Shown: positions 6,901 to 34,433 of the stretch, in pieces
Layout: each line of letters begins with the position of its first letter
Numbering within the stretch: the stretch's first letter is position 1
From: an uncultured Myxococcales bacterium
GTDB taxonomy: Bacteria > Myxococcota > UBA727 > JABDBI01
Assembly (NCBI GenBank): GCA_964385015.1
Contig: CAYLLS010000001.1
Coordinates: forward strand, 194,339 to 258,338
Length of the DNA stretch: 64,000 bases
Direction: 5' to 3'
Made by a program: the position numbers and the translations under genes
Notes under the pieces: model-generated
What the model was told of the DNA's origin: nothing
Databases searched by the model: none
What the model saw: the letters and a program-made list of their open reading frames with translations, nothing else

Positions 6901-8021
6901 TTATAAATTTCAATAGCTGCTTCTTGAGAAGAAGTTGTTTTGTCAGCTAGCCATGTATTTCTGAAATATGGCCCTACATTTAAATTATCTATATATAAGA
7001 TTTTAATATTATTTATATTATGTTGTTTAAAATAATTTAAATGATTTTTTGATAATTTTTCATTGCATTGTACAATAATTTTATTGTTTTCTTTATTAAT
7101 AATATTTTCTGCAGAAATTAATTCTAGAACTTCTTTTTCATGTAACTTAATGGTTTTAATGTTGTTTTTTTTCATTATTTGAATGATTGAATTAGTAATT
7201 TTGCGATTTTTTTTAATTATAATATTTTTATTATCTGGATATAAAATATCATAGGTTGCTCTTTGCCCTAGTAATAAATTAAAATTTATAGATTTATCAA
7301 ATGAACCATCTTTATTTAATATTAATGTTTCTATTTGATAAAAATATTTTAATAATTCATCTATTGATAAATTTAATGCTTTTATTAACATTGTAGCAAG
7401 AAATTTCTTTTTTCTATCTATTCTACAATATATTAAATCTTTATGATCAAATTCAAAATCTATCCATGATCCTCTGTATGGAATAATTCTAGCATTATAT
7501 AAAACTTTCCCAGAAGAATGTGTTTTCCCTCTATCGTTATCAAAAAATACTCCTGGACTTCTATGTAATTGACTAACTACTACTCTTTCAGTGCCATTTA
7601 TCATAAAAGTTCCATAATTAGTCATTAAAGGGATATCTCCAAAATGAAGTTCTTGTTCTTTAGTATTGTCTTTTACATTTGTTCTGCTATTATTTATATA
7701 TATAGAACGAATAGTTATTTTTATAGGGGCTGCAAATGTTAATCCTCTGGTTAGACATTCTTCTAGATCATATTTTGGTTCAGTTAACTTATATGAAACA
7801 AATTCTAATGAAATTTTATTGTTGTAGTCTTTTATAGGGAATACTGATTTAAATGCTGCCTGTAGTCCTATATTTTTTCTTTTATGAGGATTAATATCTG
7901 TTTGTAAAAAATTTTTGTAACTTTGTTTTTGTATATCAATAAGATTTGGCATTGATAATTTACTTTTAATGCTAGAAAAACTTTTGCGGATAGCAAAACT
8001 TTGTCGAAACTCAGTTACCAT
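3903..8021 (-). CDS. rpoB: DNA-directed RNA polymerase beta subunit
   Basis: 1372 aa; GDKMAGRHGNKG, HPTHYGRICPIETPEG and GGQRLGEMEVWALEAYG motifs; directly upstream of rpoC. Confidence 0.99.
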   Translation of the reverse strand: MVTEFRQSFAIRKSFSSIKSKLSMPNLIDIQKQSYKNFLQTDINPHKRKNIGLQAAFKSVFPIKDYNNKISLEFVSYKLTEPKYDLEECLTRGLTFAAPIKITIRSIYINNSRTNVKDNTKEQELHFGDIPLMTNYGTFMINGTERVVVSQLHRSPGVFFDNDRGKTHSSGKVLYNARIIPYRGSWIDFEFDHKDLIYCRIDRKKKFLATMLIKALNLSIDELLKYFYQIETLILNKDGSFDKSINFNLLLGQRATYDILYPDNKNIIIKKNRKITNSIIQIMKKNNIKTIKLHEKEVLELISAENIINKENNKIIVQCNEKLSKNHLNYFKQHNINNIKILYIDNLNVGPYFRNTWLADKTTSSQEAAIEIYKKLKPGDPPTIDIAEQLLNNLFFNMSKYDLSEVGRLKLNHKFSTHEPLTKCTLTKNDILQVIKYLIELKNGNGMIDDIDHLGNRRVRSVGELVENQYRIGLVRMEKIIKERISMQENDDTIILHEIINSKPIAAVIKEFFGSSQLSQFMDQTNPLSEITHKRRLSALGPGGLTRERAGFEVRDVHPTHYGRICPIETPEGQNIGLIASLSIFARVNKYGFIETPYRHVINGVITNHIKYYNALEEEKETIAQATESINYKTNKFKKKLIQVRQSHGTTLTLAENVTLMEVSTNQLVSIAAGLIPFLEHNDANRALMGSNMQRQAVPLLKTDAPIVGTGIEAFVGKDSGVCQIAKNSGIVCYVDSSKIIIQLDYTKNYTSDHNIIDVYKLTKFQRSNQDTCFNQTANVTMHDYIKQDSIIADGPAIHHGELALGQNVTVAFMAWHGYNFEDSIIVSERLVKNDIFTSIHIEEFECIARDTKLGAEEITNDIPNTAEDVLQKLDDSGIIKIGANVVPGNILVGKVTPKGETQLSPEEKLLRAIFGEKAGDIKNTSLHVPSGTGGTVINVKIFTRKGTTQDKRSINDKKNKISQYLKNKNDKIRIIKDIAKQYIKKILKNNTLTENLINNNIIIAHNGEKINERIMDTIDFDNYNNISINDINIKKQMQTFIKNTQANINNINNTYVKQIKQLNNGDDLPPGIIKIIKVCVATKRKLQAGDKMAGRHGNKGVISKIFPEEDMPYLPNGTPVDIILNPLGVPSRMNVGQILESHLGWAAKGLSEQLNLAIKNNSNINHIKTQLKNIFNNPKEHNIIDNLNETKTKNLIFNLQSGIPMKTPVFDGASEREIQQLLSQGGQDISAQTILFDGHTGEAFDKEVTVGIMYMLKLHHLVDNKIHARSIGPYSLVTQQPLGGKAQFGGQRLGEMEVWALEAYGAAYALQEFLTIKSDDIIGRNRMYEAIIKGEHILESGVPESFNVLIKELQSLGLDIQLLDKKKKPTN

Positions 8022-8227
8022 AATGTTTAATCCTCCATTTTTAAATACATAATTTCATATTTAATTTTTAATTTAATTATAGTAATAATAAAAAATATGA
8101 AATAAATTAGTAGACAATAAAACTAATACTACTTATTCTTTTTCGCAAATTTTGTCAATACTTTAATGATTTGTGATATAGAATAAAAGGTAATATGAGT
8201 TAATTATATTATTAATCATATGTTATG

Positions 8228-9511
8228 CTATATATATATTTTATATTGATTTTTGTATATTTGTTTAATAATTAATGGAGCTTGATAAATTGATGTGCGA
8301 ATAATTTTAGTGTAATATTTATGTCTGATATTTATTTCAATATAGTGTTTAATTTTATGTCCTATTATTACTTGAATAGGATAACCTATTAAATTAGCAT
8401 TTTTAATTTTTATAGAGGCATTAATTAATCTATCATCAAATAGTACATCTATATGATATTTTAATAATGTTTGGTATAAGTGTTGACATTGATGGTAATA
8501 GTTATGTGATAATAGTAATATAATGACATGAAATGGCGTTACAGTAATTGGCCAAATTATGCCTTGATTATCATGATTTTGTTCAATTATAGCAGCTATT
8601 GTTCTGCTGACTCCTATTCCATAACAACCCATGTTAATGTATATTTGTTTCCCTTGTTTGTTTATTATGTTAGCATTCATAGCTTTAGAATATTTGTTGT
8701 TTAGAGAAAATATATGTCCTACTTCTATACTGCGTTTAATATTAACATGAGAATTGCATTTATTACATGTAGATAGATTATTAATTTTGTTATTATTTAA
8801 GTTATTTAATTCATAATTAATAATATATCCACATGAATTACATATAATAATTTTATCTTCTCCATATTTTGTTAATGCGTGAATCTCATGATTTTTGTTT
8901 CCACCTATATTACCTGCATGTGCTTCTATATTTAAGGTGTTTAATCCACATGTTTTAAATATTTTTTTATATATATGTTGCATTCTTCTATATATGATTT
9001 CTGTATTTTTTTGATCTTCGCAAAATGAATAAGCATCTTTCATCAGAAATTCTCTGCTTCTTATTAATCCTGATCTAGGTCTTATTTCATCTCTAAATTT
9101 AGTATTTATTTGATATAAAATTAATGGTAATTGTTTATAGCTATATATATGAGATGATATTAAATTAGTAATTATTTCTTCATGAGTAGGTCCAAGACAA
9201 AAATCATTATTATTTCTATCTTTTAGTTTAAACATTTCTTTTCCATATATATTCCAACGATTAGATGTGTCCCATAAATGTTTTGATTGTAATATTGGCA
9301 TGTGAATTTCTTGTGCGTATATTTTATTTAATTCAGTGCGAATAATATTATTAATATTGTTAATTATTTTTAATCCTAATGGTAAATATATATACATGCC
9401 GGATGATGCTTGTCTTATGATACCAGCTTTTAGCATTAAAGTATGAGATATGCTATAACTTTGAGATGGGTTTTCTTTTATTATTGGAATTAACATTTTA
9501 GAATAATACAT
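8228..9511 (-). CDS. proS: Proline--tRNA ligase, short form lacking most of the INS editing domain
   Basis: LGPTHEE, KFRDEIRPRSGLIRSREFLMKDAYSF, IEVGHIF, MGCYGIGVSR, QNHDNQGIIWP; only 427 aa. Confidence 0.96.
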   Translation of the reverse strand: MYYSKMLIPIIKENPSQSYSISHTLMLKAGIIRQASSGMYIYLPLGLKIINNINNIIRTELNKIYAQEIHMPILQSKHLWDTSNRWNIYGKEMFKLKDRNNNDFCLGPTHEEIITNLISSHIYSYKQLPLILYQINTKFRDEIRPRSGLIRSREFLMKDAYSFCEDQKNTEIIYRRMQHIYKKIFKTCGLNTLNIEAHAGNIGGNKNHEIHALTKYGEDKIIICNSCGYIINYELNNLNNNKINNLSTCNKCNSHVNIKRSIEVGHIFSLNNKYSKAMNANIINKQGKQIYINMGCYGIGVSRTIAAIIEQNHDNQGIIWPITVTPFHVIILLLSHNYYHQCQHLYQTLLKYHIDVLFDDRLINASIKIKNANLIGYPIQVIIGHKIKHYIEINIRHKYYTKIIRTSIYQAPLIIKQIYKNQYKIYI

Positions 9512-9684
9512 AAAAAATTTTACCTATATTATAGCTGTTATAAAATATTATATATCAATATATTCTTGAGTATACTATTATGAAGATGTATGCATAATGT
9601 GTATATGAAAATATATAAATTTATATATGATGTATATTTTTTATATTATATATTATATATATGCTATAAACGCTATATTCAAAG

Positions 9685-10809
9685 ATGAAAAATATGAATT
9701 TTTTTTATAAAATATTAGCTACTGATGGGGCTAGTCGCAGAGGCCGTATGTTTACGCCAAGAGGAATTATAGAAACACCAACATTTATGCCAGTTGGTAC
9801 ATGTGCTGCTGTAAAATCATTAATTACAGATGATTTAGAAACTTTAAATGTAGACATTATATTAAGTAATACATATCATTTGATGTTAAGGCCTGGAATG
9901 CAATATTTTAATAAAAATAATAAAATTCATAATTTTATGAAATGGACAAAACCTATTTTAACTGATTCTGGAGGATTTCAGGTATATTCTTTGTCTATAT
10001 TAAATAAAACAAATAATATGCATTCTTTAATAAAAATTTCTGAAAATGGTGTAAGATTTAAAAGTTTTATCAATGGTCATGATTTTAATGTTACTCCAGA
10101 AACAATAATTAATATGCAAAATAATATAGGATCTGATATATTAATGCCATTAGATTATTGTATTTCTTCTGATAGTAATAAGGTAGAAGTAAAATTGGCA
10201 GCAGAAAGAACTACTAGATGGTTAGATAGAAGTATTGCAAGTCATGAGAATAATAATGCAAAATTATTTGGTATTATTCATGGTGGAATATATGATGATT
10301 TAAGAATTATTCATGCAGAAGATATTTGTAGTCGTGATCTTTTTGGTTTTGCTATTGGAGGGTTATCTATTGGAGAAAAAAAAAAATATATGTGGAAGTT
10401 ATGTAATATTGTTGCTAACATTATTCCACATAATAAACCTCGTTATTTAATGGGTGTTGGTTCTCCAGAAGATTTACTAAAAGGTATATTTTATGGAATT
10501 GATATGTTTGATTGTGTTTTGCCTACACGCAATGCTAGAAATGGGACTCTATATACTTCTAAAGGAACCATTTACATGAAACATAGTGTTTATAAATATG
10601 ATAATAAAACATTAGATGATGTATGTACATGTTATGTGTGTTTAAATTTTTCACGTAGTTATTTACATCATTTATTTAAGGCTAATGAGATTATATTTTC
10701 TCGATTAGCATCATTTCATAATATTCATTATTATATGTCACTTGTTAAATTAGCTAGAAAAGCAATTGAAAACGGCATATTTTATTCTATGATGTTAAAT
10801 CTTTATTGA
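9685..10809 (+). CDS. tgt: tRNA-guanine(34) transglycosylase
   Basis: TPTFMPVGT, LTDSGGFQVYSL, KPRYLMGVG, DMFDCVLPTRNARNG, Zn site CTCYVC...H. Confidence 0.97.
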   Translation: MKNMNFFYKILATDGASRRGRMFTPRGIIETPTFMPVGTCAAVKSLITDDLETLNVDIILSNTYHLMLRPGMQYFNKNNKIHNFMKWTKPILTDSGGFQVYSLSILNKTNNMHSLIKISENGVRFKSFINGHDFNVTPETIINMQNNIGSDILMPLDYCISSDSNKVEVKLAAERTTRWLDRSIASHENNNAKLFGIIHGGIYDDLRIIHAEDICSRDLFGFAIGGLSIGEKKKYMWKLCNIVANIIPHNKPRYLMGVGSPEDLLKGIFYGIDMFDCVLPTRNARNGTLYTSKGTIYMKHSVYKYDNKTLDDVCTCYVCLNFSRSYLHHLFKANEIIFSRLASFHNIHYYMSLVKLARKAIENGIFYSMMLNLY

Positions 10810-13075: not shown

Positions 13076-14340
13076 TGTTATTGAATTTATTATATGGTAA
13101 AAAAAAAAATAATTTTATTCAACCATTATATGTGATAAAATTAATGTTATGTATGTTATTAATTTATGTATGTTTTATTTCTTATTATGGCGTTAATATG
13201 AGTATTGATTTATCTGGTGGTTCTGAAATACAGATAAAATTTGCACATAATGTATCATCTAAAAATATAAAATCTTTATTAAAACGTTTCCAATTTAAAG
13301 ATTATCAAGTTCAAGAATATTTATTGCATAATGAAAAAAATTTTGTAATTCGAGTAAGTAATACTAATGTACTTACTAATCATCAGATTAATAAATTATC
13401 TAGTAATATAATTGATTATTTTAATTATTTTTATGTAAAAAAATCATTAAATATATATAAAGATAAATATATTAAAAATAATATTAAATTTTATATGCCT
13501 ATTCCATTACAATATAAAAATGAAAATCTATTTAAATTTATTTTTTTACAAGAAAAAGCACTAGTTCTTATTTTAAAAAAGAATATTAAATGTTTAAATG
13601 ATATTCATATTGATAAATATGTTTCTGATAATTATATTGAATATAATATATATTTTGGTAATATGATAACAAAATTATTAAGGATTTTTCATATATATTT
13701 AAATATTATAGAAATAAAGAAATTTAATATTGTATATAGTCAATTATCAAATAAGTTAATTATAGATAGTATAATAGCTGTATTGTATGCTATAATGGCA
13801 GTATTTATTTATATTGCTATTAGATTTGGTCTTTTGTTTTCTGTAGGAGCAGTCTGTTCTTTATTTTATGATATCATAGGTGCTATATTTATTGTATTTG
13901 TTGCACTTGATTTTAATATAGATTTATCATCGATTGCGGCTATGCTAACTATTATTGGATATTCTATTAATAATACTATTGTTTTATATGATAGAATTAA
14001 AGAATTATATTATATGAATAAAAATACTATTTTATCATATAATGATGTTATTATATTGTTTAATCGTGCTGTATCTCAAATTTATATGAGAACTATATAT
14101 ATGACTATTACAACTTGTATAGTTTGTGCTACATTAAGCTATTTAGTTCCTGGATATATTAGATCTTTTTCTTTGTATTTATGTATTGGAATTCTTTTAG
14201 GAAGTATATCATCTTTATTTATGGCTCCAAATATAATCATAATATTAGGAAAATATTATAAGAATGGTGTGTTAAAAAATTATTATAAAAAAGATATATT
14301 ATGTAAAATCAATAATATGAATAATAATAGTATAATTTAA
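13075..14340 (+). CDS. secF: Protein translocase subunit SecF
   Basis: IDLSGG, YIAIRF, AAMLTIIGYSINNTIVLYDRIKE; TAATG overlap with secD. Confidence 0.94.
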   Translation: MLLNLLYGKKKNNFIQPLYVIKLMLCMLLIYVCFISYYGVNMSIDLSGGSEIQIKFAHNVSSKNIKSLLKRFQFKDYQVQEYLLHNEKNFVIRVSNTNVLTNHQINKLSSNIIDYFNYFYVKKSLNIYKDKYIKNNIKFYMPIPLQYKNENLFKFIFLQEKALVLILKKNIKCLNDIHIDKYVSDNYIEYNIYFGNMITKLLRIFHIYLNIIEIKKFNIVYSQLSNKLIIDSIIAVLYAIMAVFIYIAIRFGLLFSVGAVCSLFYDIIGAIFIVFVALDFNIDLSSIAAMLTIIGYSINNTIVLYDRIKELYYMNKNTILSYNDVIILFNRAVSQIYMRTIYMTITTCIVCATLSYLVPGYIRSFSLYLCIGILLGSISSLFMAPNIIIILGKYYKNGVLKNYYKKDILCKINNMNNNSII

Positions 14341-14400
14341 TTGTCTTATATTGACAAATATATCATTTTAATTAAAAATATGTGATAATTAAGTTTTTGT

Positions 14401-14791
14401 GGGGGTGTTTTTGGTTTCGACAAAAATTAAAAATTATTAAATGCATGTCAATAGGTTTTATAATATCCTTGTATAAAAATTATAAACAATAAAAGCAGAA
14501 AATATGTTTATGAAGCGAACTAACAACAATAGTTATGCTTTAGGTGCAATGGCTTAATAAGTTTTTGTATCAAATTAGATCTAAAATTTCTTGATTTTAG
14601 AAATCATCTAATTACTGTAAACAAGATAGTTTTTGTAGTATTAGTTAATACAAAAATGAAATATAGACTAAATGCAATGTATTTATTTGCCTCTATAATA
14701 AATACATTAATTTTTATATTATAGATGGCTAAACATGTAGAGTTTATTTTTTTTTATTTTTTGGACGCGGGTTCAAATCCCGCCACCTCCA
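14401..14791 (+). ncRNA. ssrA: tmRNA (one-piece; CCA not encoded)
   Basis: 5' GGGGGTG...GGTTTCGAC pairs with 3' CACCTCC-A, giving the G3.U alanine identity pair; T-arm GCGGG-TTCAAAT-CCCGC; internal tag frame ending YALGAMA TAA TAA at 14495-14560. Confidence 0.95.
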
Positions 14792-14941
14792 TTTTATAAA
14801 TGCATTATTGATAAGTAAATATATATTATGTATATTTTTTTTCTATTTTGTATAAATTATTATATCGTTTATATTGCATAGTTGTATTTTATAAAAATAT
14901 TGTTAATAATTGATTATGTCATTTTTTTTTTTATTTTTTTG

Positions 14942-14982
14942 TTGACATTCATTTTGTTATCGCTTACATGTTGATAACATGT
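14942..14982 (+). promoter_or_regulatory. Candidate promoter/operator of the glutaminase-GS-Amt operon
   Basis: TTGACA at 14942-14947, then a perfect inverted repeat ACATGTT-gat-AACATGT (14966-14982) where a -10 element would be expected; no clear -10 consensus. Confidence 0.3.
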
Positions 14983-15006
14983 TGTTTTGTTTTATGGATT
15001 TAATAT

Positions 15007-16518
15007 ATGAAAAAAAATACATATAATGATGTAGAAGACAAATTGTTTCATCAGTTTAAAATTGATAATAAAGGATGTATTGATACTAAAGCGATATTAA
15101 ATAGTATTAAGAATGTTGGGATAAATACGTCTATTCATAAAATTGTTAGTATAATGCATAATATTAGTACAAATAAATTATCTTTTAATGATTTTGTTAA
15201 ATTAATTAATAAAAATAATAAATTTATCTTAAGACTTTTATCTAATGAATTAGCTATTAATAATTTTAGTGCTTTTGTAGATCAAATAACTGATATTTTT
15301 AATAATACTAAACATAATGATAGTGGAAAAGTGGCTGATTATATCCCACAATTAGCTAGAATTGATGCTGAAAAGTATGGTATCTCTATATGTAGTATTG
15401 ATGGACAAGAATTTTCAATTGGTGATGCTAATGAAGAATTTTGCGTTCAATCTTGTTCTAAACCAATTACTTATGGTTTAGCTATAGAAGAACATGGTCT
15501 AGATGTTGTACATAAATATGTTGGAAGAGAACCAAGTGGCAGAGGATTTAATGCTTTTGTATTGAATTATCATGGGTTACCTCATAATCCTATGATTAAT
15601 TCTGGATCTATTATGACTTCTTCTTTAATATGTCCTAATTTAAATAATGCAGATAGATTTGATTATATATTAAATATATGGAAAAGATTATCAGGTAATG
15701 GTAAAATTGGATTTGATAATCCTACTTATTTATCTGAAAAAGAAACAGCAGATAGAAATTTTGCATTAGCTTATTTTATGAATGAAAATAAAGCTTTCCC
15801 TAGTGGTGTTAATTTACAAGGAATATTAGATTTATATTTTCAAATGTGCTCTATTAGTATTAATACTAAATATTTTGCAAGAATTGCTGCTACTTTTGCT
15901 AATGGTGGAAGATGTCCTATCACTGATGATCAAGTATTTCAATCAGATACAATAAGAAGTTGTTTATCATTAATGTATTCTTGTGGAATGTATGATTATT
16001 CTGGAGAATTTGCTTTTAGATATGGTGTCCCTGCTAAAAGTGGAGTTTCTGGTGTTTTATTAGTTGTTATTCCTAATATTGTTGGTATATGTATTTGGTC
16101 TCCAAAATTAGATAGATTAGGGAATAGTGTTCGTGGGATAAAATTTGTAGAGAAATTAATAAAATCTTTTAATTATCATATTATGGATCAATTAGTGCCT
16201 AATTTGGGTGCTTTTTCTATTAAAAATAAAATGAATAATAAAATTGATTTGATGAATTTATATTATGCAGCAGCAAATGGGGATTTAAAAAATGTAAAAA
16301 TACTTGTAGCTAAAGGCGTAAATTTATCACAAAGTGATTATGATGGTAGAACTGCATTACATTTAGCTGCATCTGAAGGTCATTTGCATATAGTAGAATA
16401 TTTATTAAAAAATAATGTTGAAACCAATGTTATAGATAGATGGAATTCTACACCATTACAAGACGCAATTAGACATAAACATAACACAATTATTGATTTT
16501 TTAAAAAAATATAAATAA
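15007..16518 (+). CDS. glsA: Glutaminase with N-terminal EF-hand-like domain and C-terminal ankyrin repeats (animal GLS-like architecture)
   Basis: GKVADYIPQLA, catalytic QSCSKP, VGREPSG, PHNPMINSG, MYSCGMYDYSGEFAF, PAKSGVSG; ankyrin repeats AAANGDL, DYDGRTALHLAASEGH, DRWNSTPLQDA. Confidence 0.95.
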   Translation: MKKNTYNDVEDKLFHQFKIDNKGCIDTKAILNSIKNVGINTSIHKIVSIMHNISTNKLSFNDFVKLINKNNKFILRLLSNELAINNFSAFVDQITDIFNNTKHNDSGKVADYIPQLARIDAEKYGISICSIDGQEFSIGDANEEFCVQSCSKPITYGLAIEEHGLDVVHKYVGREPSGRGFNAFVLNYHGLPHNPMINSGSIMTSSLICPNLNNADRFDYILNIWKRLSGNGKIGFDNPTYLSEKETADRNFALAYFMNENKAFPSGVNLQGILDLYFQMCSISINTKYFARIAATFANGGRCPITDDQVFQSDTIRSCLSLMYSCGMYDYSGEFAFRYGVPAKSGVSGVLLVVIPNIVGICIWSPKLDRLGNSVRGIKFVEKLIKSFNYHIMDQLVPNLGAFSIKNKMNNKIDLMNLYYAAANGDLKNVKILVAKGVNLSQSDYDGRTALHLAASEGHLHIVEYLLKNNVETNVIDRWNSTPLQDAIRHKHNTIIDFLKKYK

Positions 16519-16542
16519 TCAATTTATTAGGAGTATATTATT

Positions 16543-17586
16543 ATGATGTCTCAAGTTGAATATATTTGGTTAGATGGAACTAGACCAACTAATATTAGAT
16601 GTAAAACAAGAATTTTATTTTTTAATGATAATAAGAAAATTAATTTAAGTTCTTTTCCTAATTGGGGATTTGATGGATCATCTACAAATCAAGCTGATGG
16701 TGTTAATTCTGATTTAATTTTAAAACCAGTGAGTTTTATTGCTGATCCTATTAAAGGCAAAAATAATTATTTAGTTTTAAATGAAGTTTATAATGTAGAT
16801 AATTCACCACATGATACTAATTCTCGATTTCAGTTAAGACAACAAATGGATAAATATGGTTCTATTTTAGATCCGTGGATTGGTTTTGAGCAAGAATATA
16901 CATTATTTAAAAATTCTAGACCATATGGATGGCCTGCCAATGGATATCCATCTCCTCAAGGTCCATTTTATTGTGGTATAGGAATAGATAAAACATGTGG
17001 CAGAGAAATTTCAGAAGAACATATTCAAACATGCTTAAATGCTGGTATTATGTTATTTGGTGCTAATGCAGAAGTTATGTTAGGTCAATGGGAATTTCAA
17101 ATAGGTTATCGTGGTAAATCTGATGAAAGTGCAGATCCATTAAATGTTTCAGATCATTTATGGTTTGCTAGATGGTTATTATTTAGAATTGCAGAAAAAT
17201 ATAATGTAGTAGTCAGTTTAGATAATAAACCAGTAATTGGAGATTGGAATGGTGCTGGTAATCATACAAATTTTTCTACAAAATATACAAGAAATATCAA
17301 GAATGGATGGAGTTATATTCAAAAATTAATTTTAGCTTTATCTAAAAGACATGAGGAACATATTGCTAATTACGGTGAAGGATTAGATAAGCGTTTAACT
17401 GGATTACATGAAACTTGTGATATCTCTACATTTAAATCTGGTAAAAGAGATAGAACAGTATCTGTTAGAATTCCTGATTCAGTATTTAAACAAAAATATG
17501 GTTATATTGAGGATAGAAGACCAGGAGCTAATTGTGATCCATATTTAGTAGCAGCACAATTAATTAAAACGGCTAAATCTATATAA
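16543..17586 (+). CDS. glnII: Glutamine synthetase type II (eukaryote-like GSII)
   Basis: 347 aa; EYIWLDG, WGFDGSST, GFEQEY, PQGPFYCG, NAEVMLGQWEFQIG, DWNGAGNHTNFST, RLTGLHET, GYIEDRRPGANCDPY; AGGAG RBS. Confidence 0.96.
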   Translation: MMSQVEYIWLDGTRPTNIRCKTRILFFNDNKKINLSSFPNWGFDGSSTNQADGVNSDLILKPVSFIADPIKGKNNYLVLNEVYNVDNSPHDTNSRFQLRQQMDKYGSILDPWIGFEQEYTLFKNSRPYGWPANGYPSPQGPFYCGIGIDKTCGREISEEHIQTCLNAGIMLFGANAEVMLGQWEFQIGYRGKSDESADPLNVSDHLWFARWLLFRIAEKYNVVVSLDNKPVIGDWNGAGNHTNFSTKYTRNIKNGWSYIQKLILALSKRHEEHIANYGEGLDKRLTGLHETCDISTFKSGKRDRTVSVRIPDSVFKQKYGYIEDRRPGANCDPYLVAAQLIKTAKSI

Positions 17587-17604
17587 TTTTTGTGAGGTGA
17601 AATA

Positions 17605-18828
17605 GTGGAAATTAATCAAATTGATACTATGTGGGTAATGTTATCTAGTGCATTCGTTATGTTAATGATTCCTGGATTATCTTTTTTTTATGGTGGATTA
17701 ATTAGAAAAAAGAATGTTTTATCTACCATTTTACATAGTTTTGTATTATTGCTTGTAATATCTATTATTTGGTTTTTATTTGGATATTCTTTAGCATTTA
17801 GTCCTAATGGAAATAGTTTTATTGGTGATCTATATTTTGCTTGTTTTAAACATGTGACTTCTAAGCCTAGTCCATTATATGCATCAACTATACCACATCA
17901 ATTATTTGCTATATTTCAAATGATGTTTGCTTGTATTACTCCAGCATTAATTTCAGGTTCTTTTGCTGAAAGAAAAAAATTTATATCTTTCATAACTTTT
18001 TCTTCTTTGTGGTTAGTATGCGTTTATTGTCCTATAGCTCATTGGGTTTGGAGTGATAATGGATGGTTAGCTAATTTGGGTGCATTAGATTTTGCTGGTG
18101 GTTCTGTTGTACATATATCTTCAGGTGTTTCTGCTATAGTGTGTGCTTTTGTATTGGGAAATAGGTTAGATTTTAAAAAATCAAATATTGAACCACATAA
18201 TATACCATTAACTATGATAGGAGTAGCATTGTTATGGTTTGGATGGTTTGGCTTTAATGCTGGAAGTGCTTTATCAGTTAATAGTATAGCTGTGATTGCT
18301 TTTATTAATACACATATATCAGCTGCATCTGGTGGATGTATGTGGTTACTTTTAAGTGTTATAGTTAATAGAAATATTAAAGCTACTGGTATTGGTAATG
18401 GAGTTGTTGCTGGATTAGTTGCTATTACACCAGCTGCTGGTTTTGTAGATATGATGTCTTCAATGATTATAGGATGTGTTGGTTCTGGGTTATGTTATAT
18501 GTTTGTAGAACATTTTATTAGGAAACATATTGATGATAGTATAGATGTTTTTGGTATTCATGGCATAGGAGGCATTGTAGGAGCAATTTTAACTGGTGTA
18601 TTTGCTTCATTTTCGATAAATTCTAATGGATCAGATGGATTAATATATGGTAATATAAATTTAGTTTTAATTCAATTGTTTTCTATTAGTGTAGTATTTG
18701 TTTATGCTGGATTAATGTCTTTTGTATTATTATATATTGTAAATTTTGTTTTTGGATTAAGAGTTAGTGGAATAGAAGAAGATGGAGGATTAGATGTTAC
18801 TACGCATCATGAACAAGGATATAGATGA
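17605..18828 (+). CDS. amtB: Ammonium transporter (Amt family)
   Basis: FQMMFA, AHWVW, DFAGGSVVHISSG, WFGWFGFNAGS, GLVAITPAAG, DVFGIHGIGG (twin His intact); GAGG RBS before GTG start. Confidence 0.97.
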   Translation: MEINQIDTMWVMLSSAFVMLMIPGLSFFYGGLIRKKNVLSTILHSFVLLLVISIIWFLFGYSLAFSPNGNSFIGDLYFACFKHVTSKPSPLYASTIPHQLFAIFQMMFACITPALISGSFAERKKFISFITFSSLWLVCVYCPIAHWVWSDNGWLANLGALDFAGGSVVHISSGVSAIVCAFVLGNRLDFKKSNIEPHNIPLTMIGVALLWFGWFGFNAGSALSVNSIAVIAFINTHISAASGGCMWLLLSVIVNRNIKATGIGNGVVAGLVAITPAAGFVDMMSSMIIGCVGSGLCYMFVEHFIRKHIDDSIDVFGIHGIGGIVGAILTGVFASFSINSNGSDGLIYGNINLVLIQLFSISVVFVYAGLMSFVLLYIVNFVFGLRVSGIEEDGGLDVTTHHEQGYR

Positions 18829-18873
18829 TCAATAATATGAAGAATATAAATTTATTATAATTTGCATTTATTA

Positions 18874-20292
18874 TTAAAATTTTTCTAAATATCCAAGTAT
18901 AAACCACCAATAATTTCCAATAGATAACCATATTGTAATATAAAATATACTTAAAATTATGCCTGTTAACCACCATTCTTTCATTGTAATATAATTGGAG
19001 CCAAAATATACTGGAGCAGTTCCTGTTCCATAATGAGTTAAACATGCTGATAGAGAATTAAATGCTGCTAATGACATAATAGCAGAAAAATGATTTATGT
19101 CAGCATTAATTAATAAAATTAAAAACATTGGATATATAGAGCTCACCATTGCTGTGGCACTAGCAAAAAAATAATGTATATAAAAATATATTATAGTTAT
19201 TGTAATATATAATAAAATTTTATTATTAAATTGCAAATAATATGTAATAATATTGCCTAACCAATTAATTATATTATGTTCTTGCATTTGATCTGCTAGC
19301 ATTAATAATATACTAAACCATATTAATGTGTTCCATGCAGTTTTTTCTTCTATGAGATCGTTCCATTTTAATACTTTAGTTATAAGTAAAATTACAATAC
19401 CTGTAAGAGCAGATAATGTAGGTGATATACCTAGTATATTACCAAACATCCATAATAATAATACTAAAATAAATGTAAATAGCATAATTAATTGTTGTAG
19501 ATTAATAGTTTTCATATTTTGTATGTTGTTTTTAGTTATAGTTGGAATATTTGATATGTTTTTTATATGAATTGGAGATATATAATAAATGATTATAGGC
19601 ATTAGTAACATAGCTATTAAGCCAGGTATTAAATTGGCTAACATCCATTGTAACCATGATATTTTTATATTCATATTACTAGCAAAAGTAATTATTAATG
19701 GATTACTGGCAATTGCTGTTATAAACATAGTACTACTTATTAAATTAGAATGAAATGCTATTTTTATTAAAAATGCACTTATAATTTTGTTTTCTTTTTT
19801 ATTTTTATATGGCAATTTTTCTGTTAAAGCTTTAATGATAGGAAATATGATTCCTGCTCCACGTGCTGTATTGCTAGGTACAGCTGGTGCTAATAATAAA
19901 TCTGAAATTGCTAATCCATATGCTAATCCTAAGATGTTTTTACTAAATATATTTATAAAAAAATAAGCTAATTTATTGCCTAATTTAGTTACATTAAATC
20001 CTTTTGCAATAAAAAATGCGAACACTACCATCCATACAATAGGTTTAGAATAATTGCTTAAACAAACATTAATAGATATAGTATTTGTTAAACTTAAAAT
20101 TGTTATACAAGTTAATGTTATGCTTCCCATAGGTAATGGTTTTAAAATGATTGTTATAATAGTTATATTAAAAATAATTAATAGATGCCAACCTTGATTT
20201 GTTAATCCTTGTGGTGGTTTAGAATACCAAAAGAAAAGTCCAATTATACTTATTGCAATTAGTATAATTTTATTATTTAGTAATTTATGCAT
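18874..20292 (-). CDS. DASS-family anion/dicarboxylate transporter (2-oxoglutarate/malate translocator-like)
   Basis: PQGL..QGWHLL, PLPMG, APAVPSNTARGAGIIFPII, SSTMFITAIASNP, HYFFAS.TA, LTHYGTGTAPVYFGSNY...WW. Confidence 0.92.
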   Translation of the reverse strand: MHKLLNNKIILIAISIIGLFFWYSKPPQGLTNQGWHLLIIFNITIITIILKPLPMGSITLTCITILSLTNTISINVCLSNYSKPIVWMVVFAFFIAKGFNVTKLGNKLAYFFINIFSKNILGLAYGLAISDLLLAPAVPSNTARGAGIIFPIIKALTEKLPYKNKKENKIISAFLIKIAFHSNLISSTMFITAIASNPLIITFASNMNIKISWLQWMLANLIPGLIAMLLMPIIIYYISPIHIKNISNIPTITKNNIQNMKTINLQQLIMLFTFILVLLLWMFGNILGISPTLSALTGIVILLITKVLKWNDLIEEKTAWNTLIWFSILLMLADQMQEHNIINWLGNIITYYLQFNNKILLYITITIIYFYIHYFFASATAMVSSIYPMFLILLINADINHFSAIMSLAAFNSLSACLTHYGTGTAPVYFGSNYITMKEWWLTGIILSIFYITIWLSIGNYWWFILGYLEKF

Positions 20293-20492
20293 AAAATTCC
20301 TTCATTATTGTACTTGTTATATTTTTATATGAATTTAATAATTCATTATAAATTATATGTCATGTATTTATTGTTATGTCATTATAGATTATCGTTAATT
20401 TTATTTATATTCATTTCATATGTTTTTGATTTGTCTTAATATATTATGATAATAAAATAATTAAATATATTATATATAAGGATAATAACTGC

Positions 20493-22526
20493 ATGTTTCA
20501 TATTGATTTGTTTTATGATAAAAGACTAATTAAAGTATTAAAATTTAAAGTAAAAAAGATATGTAAATTAAATTTTTATATTTTACATAGTATAGATGAT
20601 ATAAGTATTTTTACTTTAGAATTATTAATTCTTTATAATAATTATATATATTTCAATAATCGTAAAACTATAATTACAGATGATAAATTTGATCAATTAG
20701 TAGAGATATTAAAATTTAAACATATTAATTCTAAATTTATTTATGGTTTTAATATGACATATGAAGATATAAAAGATAATCAAAATGTTGTATTACATAA
20801 TCCATCGATGTTATCTTTACAGAAATGTTATAATATTAATGATTATAATATATGGTATAATCAAAGCAAATCTAGTATTATAATTATGCCTAAAATTGAT
20901 GGGATTGCTTGTAGTTTGAAATATAATAATGGTATATTAATATCTGCTGGCATGAGAGGCAATGGTTTAAAGGGTGATAATATTATTAATAATATTTTAA
21001 CTACATCCAATATTCCATTAAAATTATCTATGTGTATGAATGTTGAAATTCGTGGAGAGTTATATATAAAAAAATCGATTTTTAAAAAATATTTTAATAA
21101 TAAATTGATTGGTTCTAGAAGTATAGTTGCAGGAATTATACAAAGGAGTATAGATAAAAATTTAAATAATATGTTTTTATTGTCATTTTATGCATATGAT
21201 ATTATTGGTATAAATTGTTTCACTGAAGAAGATAAATTGAATTTTTTAAAAAGTTTAAAGTTTAATATCCCATCTTTTATAGTCAAAAAAACAAGTATTA
21301 ATATGAATATCATATTTTATAAATATTTTAATATAAAAAATCAATATGATTTTGAAACTGATGGTATAGTAATAAAATATAATAATATAGCAGTACAAAA
21401 GTATCTTGGAGTAACTTATAGTTATCCTAAGTTTGCTATTGCATATAAATATAATAGTAAATCTGTTATGTCTAAATTAATTAGAATTGTTTGGTCAATA
21501 GGAAGAGAAAATAGAATTACACCTATTGCTATTATTAAACCTGTTTTTATTCAAGGTGCATTGATTAATAAAGTTTCATTATATAATATTAATGTTTTTG
21601 TTAAACTTAAATTAAAAGTTAATTCTATCATAAGTATAATTAGAAAAGGAGGTATTATTCCTTATATAGAAAAAATATTGTATAGTAGTGGAAATATAAT
21701 TAAGGTTATTAAATTTTGTCCTGGATGTAAGTCTAAAGTTGTAAGAATTAAAAACTTTATATATTGTACTAATGGTCAAAAATGTTCTTTAACAATTATT
21801 AAATCTATTCATTATTATTGTAAAATGATAAAGTTATATGGATTTGGAATACAATTAATTAAACATTTAGTATTTCATAATATAATTCATAATATTCATG
21901 ACATTTATAAATTAAATATATCTGATTTAATATCTATCAAGAATATTAATAATCATATGGCGCATAAATTATTATTAGAAATTAATAACAATAATAATAT
22001 AGATTTTGCTAATTTTTTAACAGCTTTAGGGATACCACATATTGGATATCAAACTGCTGTATTAATAACAAAGTTTTTCTATTCATTTGATAATTTGCAA
22101 AAGGCTGTTGTTGATGATATAAAACAAATTATTGGAATAGGAGAGAAAAAAGCTACATTATTAGTCAAAACATTAAATAAGCGTAATATGGAAATATACA
22201 ATATTTTAAAGCATATAACATTATATAATAGTAATAAAATACATAAATTAAATAAAGAGCATAGGTTTTATAAGAAAAACATTGTTTTTACTGGTAAAAT
22301 GATGTTTTTAAAACGAGCTATTGCTCAAAAACATATATATAAATTAGGTGGTTATGTAAGCAATAATGTTAGTGTAAGTACAAATTATTTAATTAAGGGT
22401 ATAAGCAAATATACCACTAATAAAGAAAAAAAATCATATAATTTAATAAAGAATAATTGTAAATTAACAATTATGAATGAAAAAGAATTTATTAAAATAA
22501 TTAATTATGTATCATGTATGATTTAG
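20493..22526 (+). CDS. ligA: NAD-dependent DNA ligase (strongly diverged)
   Basis: MLSL, adenylation PKIDG, EIRGE, ETDGIVIK, FAIAYK, Cys4 Zn finger, ALGIPHIG HhH, C-terminal BRCT (IVFTGK). Confidence 0.93.
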   Translation: MFHIDLFYDKRLIKVLKFKVKKICKLNFYILHSIDDISIFTLELLILYNNYIYFNNRKTIITDDKFDQLVEILKFKHINSKFIYGFNMTYEDIKDNQNVVLHNPSMLSLQKCYNINDYNIWYNQSKSSIIIMPKIDGIACSLKYNNGILISAGMRGNGLKGDNIINNILTTSNIPLKLSMCMNVEIRGELYIKKSIFKKYFNNKLIGSRSIVAGIIQRSIDKNLNNMFLLSFYAYDIIGINCFTEEDKLNFLKSLKFNIPSFIVKKTSINMNIIFYKYFNIKNQYDFETDGIVIKYNNIAVQKYLGVTYSYPKFAIAYKYNSKSVMSKLIRIVWSIGRENRITPIAIIKPVFIQGALINKVSLYNINVFVKLKLKVNSIISIIRKGGIIPYIEKILYSSGNIIKVIKFCPGCKSKVVRIKNFIYCTNGQKCSLTIIKSIHYYCKMIKLYGFGIQLIKHLVFHNIIHNIHDIYKLNISDLISIKNINNHMAHKLLLEINNNNNIDFANFLTALGIPHIGYQTAVLITKFFYSFDNLQKAVVDDIKQIIGIGEKKATLLVKTLNKRNMEIYNILKHITLYNSNKIHKLNKEHRFYKKNIVFTGKMMFLKRAIAQKHIYKLGGYVSNNVSVSTNYLIKGISKYTTNKEKKSYNLIKNNCKLTIMNEKEFIKIINYVSCMI

Positions 22527-33984: not shown

Positions 33985-34433
33985 ATGTTATTCTCCGACA
34001 TAGGTTTTTTTAATGCTTTATTGAGTGTATGCCAAGCTAAAGTAGCACATTTTATTCTAATAGGAAATTTTTTTACTCCATTAAAAACTGTTAATTTCCC
34101 TAATAATTGCATATCATTTTTAGATATATTAGGTTGAGTTAAAAATGCATGAAATGCTGTATAGATTTTTTTTATTTGTATTATTGTATTTTTATATATA
34201 TGATTTGTCATCATTGATGCAGATGCTTTTGAAATAGCACATCCATCACTTTTAAATTTAACATCTATAATAGTATTATTATTCATATTTACAAATATGA
34301 TAATTTTATCACCACATATTGGATTATATCCACATGAAACATAATGAGCATTTTTAAGTATTCCAAAATTATTAGGATTGTTATTATGATCTAATATTAT
34401 ATTTTTATATAATTCATTGATATTATTTAACAC
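33972..34433 (-). CDS. sufU: SufU (NifU-like) Fe-S assembly protein
   Basis: ILDH, NPICGD, GCAISKASASMM, RIKCATLAWH. Confidence 0.95.
   Translation of the reverse strand: MLNNINELYKNIILDHNNNPNNFGILKNAHYVSCGYNPICGDKIIIFVNMNNNTIIDVKFKSDGCAISKASASMMTNHIYKNTIIQIKKIYTAFHAFLTQPNISKNDMQLLGKLTVFNGVKKFPIRIKCATLAWHTLNKALKKPMSENNICGQ

What the first reader, a model, noticed from the sequence alone, without database searches (positions are those of the whole stretch)
15007..18828. Glutaminase + glutamine synthetase II + ammonium channel in one tight operon: a candidate symbiotic 'nitrogen valve'
Seen: three co-oriented genes with gaps of 24 and 18 nt, clear RBSs before the second and third genes, and intact catalytic motifs. 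Known: glutaminase (Gln to Glu + NH4+) and GS (Glu + NH4+ + ATP to Gln) are opposing reactions that form an ATP-burning futile cycle if both are active. Bacterial amtB normally sits with glnK, and bacterial GS is usually GSI. Both enzymes here are the eukaryote-like forms. Inference: in a genome that has shed much else, keeping this trio suggests a dedicated system that either recycles host ammonium into glutamine or burns host glutamine and vents ammonium. Direction could be set allosterically through the glutaminase's extra domains. I do not recall this arrangement as a described operon.
Basis: partly seen in the sequence, partly recalled or inferred. Interest (0 to 1): 0.85.

Follow-up and report, generated by a model that had tools for sequence, protein, structure and literature searches.

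The report
Glutaminase, glutamine synthetase, ammonium channel operon
A tiny marine intracellular bacterium keeps three tightly packed genes that make glutamine, break it down and move ammonium, and the same gene trio turns out to be widespread in free-living bacteria rather than a symbiosis-specific invention.

Summary
Three co-oriented ORFs (15007-16518, 16543-17586, 17605-18828; gaps 24 and 18 nt) encode a kidney-type glutaminase (GLS: EF-hand-like N-terminus, catalytic domain, ankyrin repeats), a type II glutamine synthetase (GSII) and an Amt channel. All three keep nearly every conserved residue. One RNA-library contig bridges both gaps.

The reading as a symbiosis-specific device is not supported.
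- Of 44 ankyrin-bearing glutaminase loci from named bacterial genomes, 12 carry GSII and Amt beside it and 5 more carry one of them. These come from at least six phyla.
- None of 36 ankyrin-less glutaminase loci does.
- GSII is the family's own synthetase (18 of 21 genomes). GLS is in 3 of 21 and Amt in 2 of 21, always beside GSII or GLS.

The 562-kb genome showed no P-II, GOGAT, true GDH, GlnRS or class I/II amidotransferases. It has GatA and nucleotide transporters.

Best reading: a co-transcribed glutamine/glutamate balancing unit with ammonium exchange. It feeds tRNA-dependent glutamine formation, and the glutaminase probably acts as a relief valve. The direction of net flow is inferred, not shown. 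I found no paper describing the trio. Interest is moderate.

The parts
15007..16518 (+). Kidney-type (three-domain) glutaminase, 503 aa. It has an EF-hand-like N-terminal region, a catalytic domain at about residues 107-392 and ankyrin repeats at about 418-500.
   Evidence: Pfam Glutaminase 1.5e-108 plus Ank families. NCBIfam glutaminase A at 307 bits, above the 255 cut-off. phmmer to human kidney-type glutaminase 1e-135 over residues 9-502. 92 of 93 highly conserved columns kept. It is the only glutaminase match in the genome.
16543..17586 (+). Type II glutamine synthetase, 347 aa. A database copy starts at the second ATG and has 346 aa.
   Evidence: Pfam Gln-synt_N and Gln-synt_C. The best NCBIfam model is GlnII at 428 bits, below its 500 cut-off. 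PDB matches are type II enzymes at 1e-103 to 1e-89. 109 of 109 conserved columns kept. It is the only GS match in the genome. It lies inside the family's own GSII clade, support 100/98.
17605..18828 (+). Amt-family ammonium channel, 407 aa, GTG start.
   Evidence: Pfam Ammonium_transp 5.2e-121. TIGR00836 at 437 bits, above the 343 cut-off. 115 of 120 conserved columns kept, including the twin histidines H170 and H319. It is the only Amt in the genome.
16529..16533 (+). Shine-Dalgarno-like AGGAG, 9 nt before the GSII start codon.
   Evidence: Read. Sequence only, not tested.
17594..17599 (+). Shine-Dalgarno-like GAGGTG, 5 nt before the Amt GTG start codon.
   Evidence: Read. Sequence only, not tested.
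15010..19051 (.). Extent of a single 4,042-nt contig from a metatranscriptomic RNA library. It covers all three genes and bridges both intergenic gaps.
   Evidence: run X3, record 8, 3 differing letters, no gaps. Run X4, record 15 (16611-17825) bridges the GSII/Amt gap. Contigs show neither strand nor transcript ends, and DNA carry-over is not excluded.
14795..15006 (+). Upstream intergenic region between the tmRNA and the glutaminase. It presumably holds the promoter.
   Evidence: The tmRNA ends at 14794. A TTGACA lies at 14942-14947 and a 7-nt inverted repeat at 14955-14979 (read). The promoter scan was no better than chance.
18874..20292 (-). Convergent neighbour: a DASS-family anion/dicarboxylate symporter. 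It may be metabolically related but is not shown to belong to the unit.
   Evidence: Pfam Na_sulph_symp 3.8e-118. TIGR00785 at 331 bits. It does not recur in the other trio loci.

Best explanation
The three genes form one transcription unit. They encode an active kidney-type glutaminase (Gln to Glu + NH3), the family's native type II glutamine synthetase (Glu + NH4+ + ATP to Gln) and an Amt ammonium channel.

This is one instance of a three-gene neighbourhood that recurs across bacterial phyla. It is not a symbiosis-specific invention.

In this 562-kb, nucleotide-importing intracellular bacterium the unit appears to be the whole of central nitrogen metabolism. No P-II, GOGAT, true glutamate dehydrogenase, GlnRS or class I/II amidotransferases were found. 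The only other glutamine user detected is GatA, part of GatCAB, which makes Gln-tRNA by transamidation.

Proposed working (inferred, not shown):
- Amt brings in ammonium.
- GSII turns host-derived glutamate into the glutamine that GatCAB needs.
- GSII has no adenylylation control and Amt has no GlnK brake. The glutaminase therefore returns surplus glutamine to glutamate, and it also lets the cell live on imported glutamine.
- Together the pair clamps the Gln:Glu ratio at the cost of some host-derived ATP.
For: Gene identities and intactness.

Tight packing and ribosome-binding sites.

RNA: an RNA-library contig of 4,042 nt covers 15010-19051 and bridges both gaps. A second run bridges the GSII/Amt gap.

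Recurrence of the trio:
- Among 44 ankyrin-bearing glutaminase loci, 12 hold GSII and Amt. Nine of these are tight and on one strand.
- 2 more hold GSII only and 3 hold Amt only.
- 0 of 36 ankyrin-less glutaminase loci hold either. Fisher p is 1e-5 for 17/44 against 0/36. Kin are not independent, so this p is only indicative.
- Gene order varies between loci, and one locus (L057) uses a different Amt lineage.

Three groupings repeat in the GLS, GSII and Amt trees: Micromonospora with Kitasatospora; Saprospiraceae with Flavobacteriaceae; Woeseiaceae with Gemmatimonadota.

Within the family:
- GSII is in 18 of 21 genomes, GLS in 3 of 21 and Amt in 2 of 21.
- In G014, GLS and Amt sit between the native GSII and a gene that lies 97 bp from GSII in its congener G003.
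- In G011, a second GSII copy beside GLS groups with an Oligoflexia trio (support 99/93), as does its GLS.

Genome inventory of G000 (87.7% complete):
- No P-II, no GOGAT, no GATase class I, no GATase_7, GATase_6 or GATase_2.
- One class Ic synthetase only. GatA is present.
- The ELFV dehydrogenase match is Leu/Phe/Trp-dehydrogenase-like.
- A single 684-aa E1 (77). TLC nucleotide transporters are present.
Against: - Nothing in the sequence fixes the direction of net flux.
- Co-expressing opposing enzymes wastes ATP unless they are allosterically separated. That separation is assumed by analogy with mammalian glutaminase, which is phosphate-activated and glutamate-inhibited (recalled, not tested).
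- The genome is 87.7% complete in 2 contigs, so 'not found' is not absence.
- Aminotransferase classes III to V and other glutamine users (NadE, PdxT, FGAM synthase) were not searched.
- No glutamate or glutamine transporter was identified: SDF was not found and ABC systems were not searched.
- RNA contigs cannot prove a single transcript or exclude DNA carry-over.
- Independent assembly of the trio within the family is not proven. The AU test does not reject one clade for all the family's glutaminases, p 0.318.
- Most relatives manage with GSII alone.
Confidence: 0.55

Rival explanations
1. Glutaminolysis with venting. The bacterium imports host glutamine, and the glutaminase makes the glutamate it needs. 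The released ammonia leaves through Amt. GSII is only a back-up for times when glutamine is scarce.
For: Within the family, Amt occurs only in genomes that also have the glutaminase: 2 of 3 with it, 0 of 18 without it. The block present in G014 but not in G003 is GLS plus Amt. Three named loci have GLS plus Amt without GSII. Glutamate is needed to charge both tRNA-Glu and tRNA-Gln, because there is one GluRS-type enzyme and no GlnRS.
Against: No route from glutamate into energy metabolism was found. There is no true GDH, no class I/II aminotransferase (the only hit is SufS) and no SucA-sized E1. Amt proteins are generally uptake or scavenging systems, and ammonia can leave by diffusion (established knowledge, recalled). 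GSII is kept with 109 of 109 conserved columns and sits in the same RNA contig.
Confidence: 0.25
2. A host-serving nitrogen valve. The symbiont recycles host waste ammonium into glutamine for the host, or regulates host glutamine, as its contribution to the symbiosis.
For: The trio is retained in a 562-kb genome and is present in RNA libraries. GS-based nitrogen recycling is known from insect nutritional symbionts (recalled).
Against: The same trio occurs in free-living bacteria of at least six phyla. 18 of 21 family genomes lack the glutaminase. The genome imports nucleotides (TLC) and showed no class I/II aminotransferases or amidotransferases. That is the profile of a consumer, not a provider. 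No exporter was identified.
Confidence: 0.1
3. The adjacency has no functional meaning. Three nitrogen genes ended up side by side through genome shrinkage and are expressed together by accident.
For: Gene order differs between loci. 27 of 44 ankyrin-type glutaminase loci have neither partner nearby.
Against: 17 of 44 linked loci against 0 of 36 for ankyrin-less glutaminases. Linkage recurs across phyla with different gene orders and Amt lineages. Three differently built GLS-GSII adjacencies occur in one family.
Confidence: 0.05
4. The ankyrin-bearing glutaminase is a secreted effector that depletes host glutamine, like other ankyrin-repeat proteins of intracellular bacteria.
For: The family is rich in ankyrin-repeat ORFs (many matches to residues 405-503). 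There is a weak NCBIfam match to a Dot/Icm ankyrin effector, 36 bits against a 600 cut-off.
Against: The ankyrin domain is part of the standard architecture of this glutaminase in free-living bacteria and in animals. I saw no obvious signal peptide at the N-terminus (read by eye, no predictor run). The gene is embedded in a metabolic operon.
Confidence: 0.03

Closest known systems
Mammalian kidney-type glutaminase (GLS/KGA) and liver-type GLS2
   Same: The same three-part architecture, alignable over residues 9-502 at E 1e-135. The catalytic Ser-x-x-Lys motif and other invariant residues are kept.
   Different: This one is bacterial and cytoplasmic, with no mitochondrial presequence. Pfam does not detect the EF-hand_14 domain in this copy at E 1e-3, although it does in relatives. 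Phosphate activation and filament formation are untested.
Bacterial GlnII / eukaryotic type II glutamine synthetase
   Same: About 350 aa with a beta-grasp and a catalytic domain. The strong PDB matches are type II enzymes at 1e-103 to 1e-89; the only other match is very weak, at 2.7e-05. 109 of 109 conserved columns are kept.
   Different: It scores 428 bits, below the 500-bit cut-off of the NCBIfam GlnII equivalog model. Here it is the sole GS of the genome, not an accessory to GSI as in rhizobia and streptomycetes (recalled).
amtB-glnK operon (the usual bacterial context of Amt)
   Same: An Amt channel with twin histidines and a phenylalanine gate. It exceeds the TIGR00836 cut-off.
   Different: No P-II gene was found in this genome. 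Only 1 of the 92 loci held at that step (the Nannocystis trio locus L032) has P-II next to Amt. Here Amt is paired with a glutaminase and GSII instead.
Glutamine-dependent acid resistance of E. coli (YbaS glutaminase with GadC; recalled)
   Same: A glutaminase whose released ammonia is the physiologically important product.
   Different: YbaS is a short, single-domain glutaminase that matches at only 9e-53. It has no GS or Amt partner. None of the 36 ankyrin-less glutaminase loci here had GSII or Amt nearby.
The eukaryotic glutamine-glutamate cycle (GS and GLS in separate cells or compartments; recalled)
   Same: The same two enzyme types, acting as an opposing pair.
   Different: In eukaryotes the two are separated in space. 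Here they are encoded in one operon and presumably share one cytoplasm.

Membership tests
Kidney-type (multidomain) glutaminase | Serine-dependent glutaminase domain (PF04960) with the catalytic Ser-x-x-Lys motif | tested here: met
   PF04960 at 1.5e-108 over profile positions 1-285 of 286. S149 and K152 are invariant in 114 aligned sequences. TIGR03814 is above its cut-off.
Kidney-type (multidomain) glutaminase | C-terminal ankyrin repeats | tested here: met
   Ank_2 at 3.1e-17, residues 418-500. This region aligns to the ankyrin region of human KGA.
Kidney-type (multidomain) glutaminase | N-terminal EF-hand-like domain (PF17959) | tested here: inconclusive
   There is no Pfam hit at E 1e-3 in this copy, but residues 9-100 align to the N-terminal domain of human KGA. 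Relatives do hit PF17959.
Kidney-type (multidomain) glutaminase | Phosphate activation and tetramer or filament assembly | not testable with these tools
   Needs an enzyme assay and electron microscopy.
Type II glutamine synthetase (GlnII) | About 330-370 aa with beta-grasp and catalytic domains, closest to type II rather than type I or III | tested here: met
   347 aa with Pfam Gln-synt_N and Gln-synt_C. GlnII model at 1.7e-128, against GlnA at 4.9e-13 and type III at 6e-11. PDB type II matches at about 1e-103.
Type II glutamine synthetase (GlnII) | Score above the NCBIfam equivalog cut-off (NF041605, 500 bits) | tested here: not met
   428.4 bits. All 109 highly conserved columns are nevertheless kept.
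Type II glutamine synthetase (GlnII) | Decameric assembly | not tested
   No structure prediction was made.
Amt/AmtB ammonium channel | Ammonium_transp fold with twin His, Phe gate and the periplasmic Trp/Ser binding site | tested here: met
   PF00909 at 5.2e-121. TIGR00836 at 437 bits, above 343. H170, H319, F108, F217, W149, S221 and D162 are all among the conserved columns kept. Assigning these to the E. coli AmtB roles is recalled, not tested.
Amt/AmtB ammonium channel | Partner GlnK (P-II) encoded alongside | tested here: not met
   No P-II match in the genome, which is 87.7% complete.
Conserved bacterial GLS-GSII-Amt neighbourhood (defined here) | Ankyrin-type glutaminase, GSII and Amt within a few kb, mostly on one strand | tested here: met
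   In the window the gaps are 24 and 18 nt. 12 of 44 named loci show the trio, and 9 of those are tight and on one strand.

The most novel reading that the evidence does not exclude
The trio is a self-contained glutamine homeostat that works without P-II. It has been assembled repeatedly in bacteria. A cooperative kidney-type glutaminase acts as the relief valve for a glutamine synthetase that lacks adenylylation control and an ammonium channel that lacks a GlnK brake. This protects the glutamate pool against ammonium surges. The same bacterial pairing of kidney-type glutaminase with GSII may be the source from which eukaryotes inherited their glutamine-glutamate cycle enzymes.
Probability: 0.25. 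Interest if true: 0.7.

Novelty: new variant of a known kind. Interest (0 to 1): 0.5.

Why it matters
Each of the three proteins belongs to a well-known family, so the genes themselves are ordinary.

What is less ordinary is that two opposing enzymes and an ammonium channel are linked again and again. The linkage appears in different gene orders, in at least six phyla and in three differently built versions within one symbiont family. None of the seven literature searches found a description of it.

If the linkage reflects a regulatory design, a glutaminase acting as a valve for an otherwise unregulated synthetase, it would add a P-II-independent mode of nitrogen homeostasis to the textbook picture. 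It would also give the EF-hand and ankyrin domains of glutaminases, whose role is debated in cancer biology, a tractable bacterial setting.

For the symbiont, the result is a compact hypothesis: its whole nitrogen economy may reduce to this operon plus GatCAB.

Tried and rejected
- Complex prediction. I sent Amt, GSII and the glutaminase ankyrin domain (residues 395-503), each with its alignment. The answer was 'no answer' (score 0.00, mark 0.32). This is evidence neither for nor against binding.
- Promoter and terminator scan. 57 promoter-like sites against 61 expected and 2 terminator-like sites against 1.4 expected. Uninformative in this AT-rich DNA.
- Uncovered parts in the RNA lay. In X3 there was no cover between 14727 and 15009, and little or none beyond about 19500. 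The DNA run X1 gave only short pieces, so there is no DNA coverage control.
- Independent acquisition of the glutaminase in the three family genomes. The quick tree separates G000, G011 and G014, but the AU test does not reject one clade (p 0.318). I claim only the G011 block transfer (GSII copy 99/93 with Oligoflexia) and the G014/G003 presence/absence difference.
- Origin of G000's Amt. It is closer to generic Amts (55-58%) than to the Amts of trio loci (41-48%). Its place in the small Amt tree is unresolved (support 22). No conclusion drawn.
- Glutamate-to-TCA route. No true GDH, no class I/II aminotransferase and no SucA-sized E1 were found. I therefore dropped energy-yielding glutaminolysis as the lead idea.
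- The search of protein representatives. It gave 3,648 representatives at E 1e-30. The top hits are long multi-copy or fused proteins without names or context, so they added nothing to the argument.
- A fourth conserved gene in trio loci. Most extra clusters are shadow ORFs. The real ones are a NarX/NarL-like two-component pair in 5 loci and an unannotated protein of about 176 aa in 4 loci. Neither is present in the window.
- Literature (listings and abstract starts). I read passages of PMC13142944 and PMC3412718. None describes the trio. Pasquali et al. 2017 was not held. I know it only through the sentence in PMC13142944 that ankyrin repeats were acquired early in glutaminase evolution, and its claim of a bacterial origin is recalled. 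Supplementary files were not consulted and could hold neighbourhood tables that I did not see.

Full report
**What is there**

The window is 64 kb of a 561,909-bp, two-contig genome with about 23% G+C. Marker-gene completeness is 87.7%.

Three + strand ORFs lie at 15007-16518 (503 aa), 16543-17586 (347 aa) and 17605-18828 (407 aa, GTG start). The gaps between them are 24 and 18 nt. Shine-Dalgarno-like AGGAG (16529-16533) and GAGGTG (17594-17599) precede the second and third genes.

A tmRNA gene lies upstream at 14401-14794, preceded by secD and secF. Downstream is a convergent DASS-family symporter (18874-20292, minus strand), followed by ligA.

**Identities**

- Protein 1 has a Pfam glutaminase domain (1.5e-108) and ankyrin repeats. 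It aligns to human kidney-type glutaminase over residues 9-502 at 1e-135. Single-domain bacterial glutaminases match at only about 1e-53.
- Protein 2 is a type II glutamine synthetase. The NCBIfam GlnII model is by far the best match (1.7e-128), although its 428 bits fall below the 500-bit equivalog cut-off. The strong matches among solved structures are type II enzymes, at 1e-103 to 1e-89.
- Protein 3 is an Amt channel: PF00909 at 5.2e-121, and TIGR00836 above its cut-off.

I compared each protein with 119 homologues and looked at columns conserved in at least 97% of them. The glutaminase keeps 92 of 93, GSII 109 of 109 and Amt 115 of 120, with five conservative swaps. The Ser149-x-x-Lys152 motif and the twin histidines of Amt are among the kept residues. 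Nothing suggests that any of the three is inactive. Each is the only member of its family found in the genome.

**Expression**

Four public runs of one study hold this stretch. They are labelled marine or seawater metagenome, and two are metatranscriptomic RNA libraries.

When laid on 14000-20600, run X3 gave a single contig of 4,042 nt that covers 15010-19051. That is all three genes and both gaps, with three differing letters and no indels. Run X4 gave a 1,215-nt contig that bridges the GSII/Amt gap.

A contig cannot prove a single transcript, shows no strand, and DNA carry-over is not excluded. The result is still what co-transcription predicts.

**The trio is not special to this symbiont**

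A search of one genome per GTDB species with a glutaminase alignment returned the best 80 of at least 596 loci, with up to 10 kb of flank. I split them by whether the glutaminase match reaches the ankyrin region.

Among the 44 that do:
- 11 have both a GSII and an Amt at 35% identity or more in the flank.
- L057 has GSII plus a more divergent Amt, confirmed by Pfam. That makes 12 trios.
- 2 more have GSII only and 3 have Amt only.
- 27 have neither.

Among the 36 without ankyrin repeats, none has either partner. Fisher p is 1e-5 for 17/44 against 0/36. Relatives are not independent, so this is only indicative. Several loci have short flanks, so the counts are lower bounds.

The trios come from these groups:
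- Actinomycetota (Micromonospora, Kitasatospora)
- Myxococcota (including Nannocystis pusilla)
- Gammaproteobacteria (Woeseiaceae)
- Gemmatimonadota
- Bdellovibrionota (Oligoflexia)
- Bacteroidota (Saprospiraceae, Flavobacteriaceae)

Nine trios are tight and on one strand. The orders seen are GLS-GSII-Amt as here (Micromonospora), GSII-GLS-Amt, GSII-Amt-GLS, and Amt-P-II-GLS-GSII. Pfam confirmed the architecture in Micromonospora, a Flavobacteriaceae genome, a Gemmatimonadota genome and an Oligoflexia genome.

Three groupings recur in the trees of all three proteins: Micromonospora with Kitasatospora, Saprospiraceae with Flavobacteriaceae, and Woeseiaceae with two Gemmatimonadota. This suggests that the block can travel as a unit, including across phyla.

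Five loci also carry a NarX/NarL-like sensor kinase and response regulator. Only the Nannocystis locus has a P-II gene next to Amt.

**Within the symbiont's own family**

Of 21 genomes (G000 plus 20 relatives), GSII is found in 18. The three without it are the two smallest genomes and one that is 59% complete. The glutaminase is in 3: G000, G011 and G014. Amt is in 2: G000 and G014.

In a careful GSII tree, all family copies, G000's included, form one clade with support 100/98. The GSII in the window is therefore the family's inherited gene. The three glutaminase-bearing genomes are built differently:

- G000 has GLS-GSII-Amt on one strand.
- G014 has GSII divergent from GLS-Amt. Its congener G003 is collinear on both sides but has only about 97 bp where G014 has the roughly 3.1-kb GLS-Amt block.
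- G011 has a second, GLS-adjacent GSII copy that groups with the Oligoflexia trio (99/93), as does its glutaminase (99 in the quick tree). Its native GSII lies on another contig.

So at least one block transfer and one insertion or deletion next to the native GSII have occurred. I cannot show that all three glutaminases arrived separately. The AU test does not reject a single clade, p 0.318.

**What the rest of the genome says**

Family searches of G000 found none of the following:
- P-II
- GOGAT domain
- class I amidotransferase
- GATase_7, GATase_6 or GATase_2
- SDF-type glutamate transporter

The only PF00155 hit is SufS. The only ELFV dehydrogenase is a 368-aa Leu/Phe/Trp-dehydrogenase-like protein, not a glutamate dehydrogenase. 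The only E1 component is a 684-aa frame, too short for SucA.

There is one class Ic aminoacyl-tRNA synthetase and so no GlnRS. GatA is present at 1.7e-140. Two TLC-family nucleotide transporter genes are present.

Taken together, this is an intracellular bacterium that imports nucleotides. Its only detected uses for free glutamine are the glutaminase and GatCAB-dependent formation of Gln-tRNA. All 'not found' statements are limited by the 87.7% completeness and by the families I chose to search.

**How it most likely works**

Shown:
- three intact genes of known function in one tight unit
- an RNA-library contig across all of them
- recurrent linkage in many phyla
- GSII as the native gene, with GLS and Amt as the variable additions
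- no P-II, GOGAT or GDH detected

Inferred:
- GSII supplies glutamine for GatCAB from host glutamate and ammonium, and Amt raises the ammonium supply.
- The glutaminase converts surplus or imported glutamine back to glutamate.
- GSII has no adenylylation system and this Amt has no GlnK. A glutaminase that switches on only at high glutamine would therefore protect the glutamate pool. That property is known for the mammalian enzyme and is recalled, not tested here.
- The ATP cost would fall on the host through the nucleotide transporters.

I give this reading about 0.55.

The main rival, at about 0.25, is net glutamine import with ammonia venting. It is favoured by Amt co-occurring with GLS rather than with GSII in the family. 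It is weakened by the lack of any detected route for glutamate into energy metabolism. A host-serving nitrogen valve gets about 0.1, because the trio is general to bacteria and the genome looks like a consumer.

**Comparison with what is known**

The genes belong to well-known families (see the membership table). The usual context of bacterial Amt is glnK, which is absent here. GSII is usually described as an accessory to GSI in rhizobia and streptomycetes (recalled), but here it is the only GS.

The ankyrin-bearing glutaminase is widespread in bacteria. Source names among the hits include Leptolyngbya, Nannocystis, Planctomycetota and Thiodiazotropha. A review states that ankyrin repeats were acquired early in glutaminase evolution, citing Pasquali et al. 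2017 (PMC13142944, passages). I could not read that primary paper.

None of seven full-text searches found a description of a glutaminase-GSII-Amt cluster. No paper held all three terms glnII, glutaminase and amtB. The library omits most subscription journals, and supplements were closed.

**Verdict**

The symbiosis-specific interpretation is only partly supported.

The unit is a new variant of known nitrogen-assimilation gene clusters: common in genomes, apparently undescribed in print, and built from ordinary parts. Interest is moderate at 0.5. It would be higher if the relief-valve design or a link to the eukaryotic enzyme pair were shown.

Noticed in passing
window 14401-14794 (+): A tmRNA gene lies directly upstream of the operon. 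Its predicted tag peptide is AENMFMKRTNNNSYALGAMA. It was also well covered in the RNA library (X3 record 7).
   Followed up: partly
window 51660-53024 (+); also G000:C1:319585-320466: Two TLC-family nucleotide (ATP/ADP-type) transporter genes. They mark an obligate intracellular, nucleotide-importing lifestyle. None of the 14 control genomes has this family.
   Followed up: partly
L011:7678-9268 (G014): The relative's glutaminase is read in two overlapping frames: an EF-hand piece (7678-8103) and a catalytic plus ankyrin piece (8090-9268). This could be a frameshift, an assembly error or a true split.
   Followed up: no
L011:7608-10667 against L096:2904-3000: Two genomes of one genus are collinear except for a block of about 3.1 kb holding GLS and Amt next to the native GSII in G014. 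G003 has about 97 bp at that place. This is a clean presence/absence difference.
   Followed up: yes
L017:779-3278; also L021, L027, L032, L047: A HisKA_3 sensor kinase lies beside the glutaminase cluster in 5 loci, paired with a LuxR-type response regulator. One kinase has a PilJ-type N-terminal sensor and a PAS domain. This could be a dedicated regulator in free-living bacteria.
   Followed up: partly
L032:8228-12981 (Nannocystis pusilla): The order here is Amt, P-II (9554-9868), GLS, GSII. It is the only one of the 92 loci held at that step with a P-II gene detectable by tblastn.
   Followed up: yes
window 14955-14979 (+): A 7-nt inverted repeat, TGTTATC-N11-GATAACA, lies between a TTGACA (14942-14947) and the glutaminase start codon (read). 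It may be chance in AT-rich DNA.
   Followed up: no
window about 8000-10000 and about 56000: GC skew changes sign twice within the window: negative to positive near 8-10 kb, and positive to negative near 56 kb.
   Followed up: no
L093:1374-2480 (-) = G000:C1, about 170.4-171.5 kb; G000:C1:287204-288115: There is a 368-aa Leu/Phe/Trp-dehydrogenase-like ELFV enzyme and a 684-aa E1 dehydrogenase frame. They may form a branched-chain amino acid to acyl-CoA route that also releases ammonium.
   Followed up: partly
P0368 and L098 (G018): A database protein whose source label is Myxococcaceae is identical to the GSII of family genome G018. One of the two taxonomic labels may be a binning error.
   Followed up: no
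window 34423-36929 (-): sufS and sufD, Fe-S cluster assembly genes. The sufS frame was the only PF00155 hit in the genome.
   Followed up: partly
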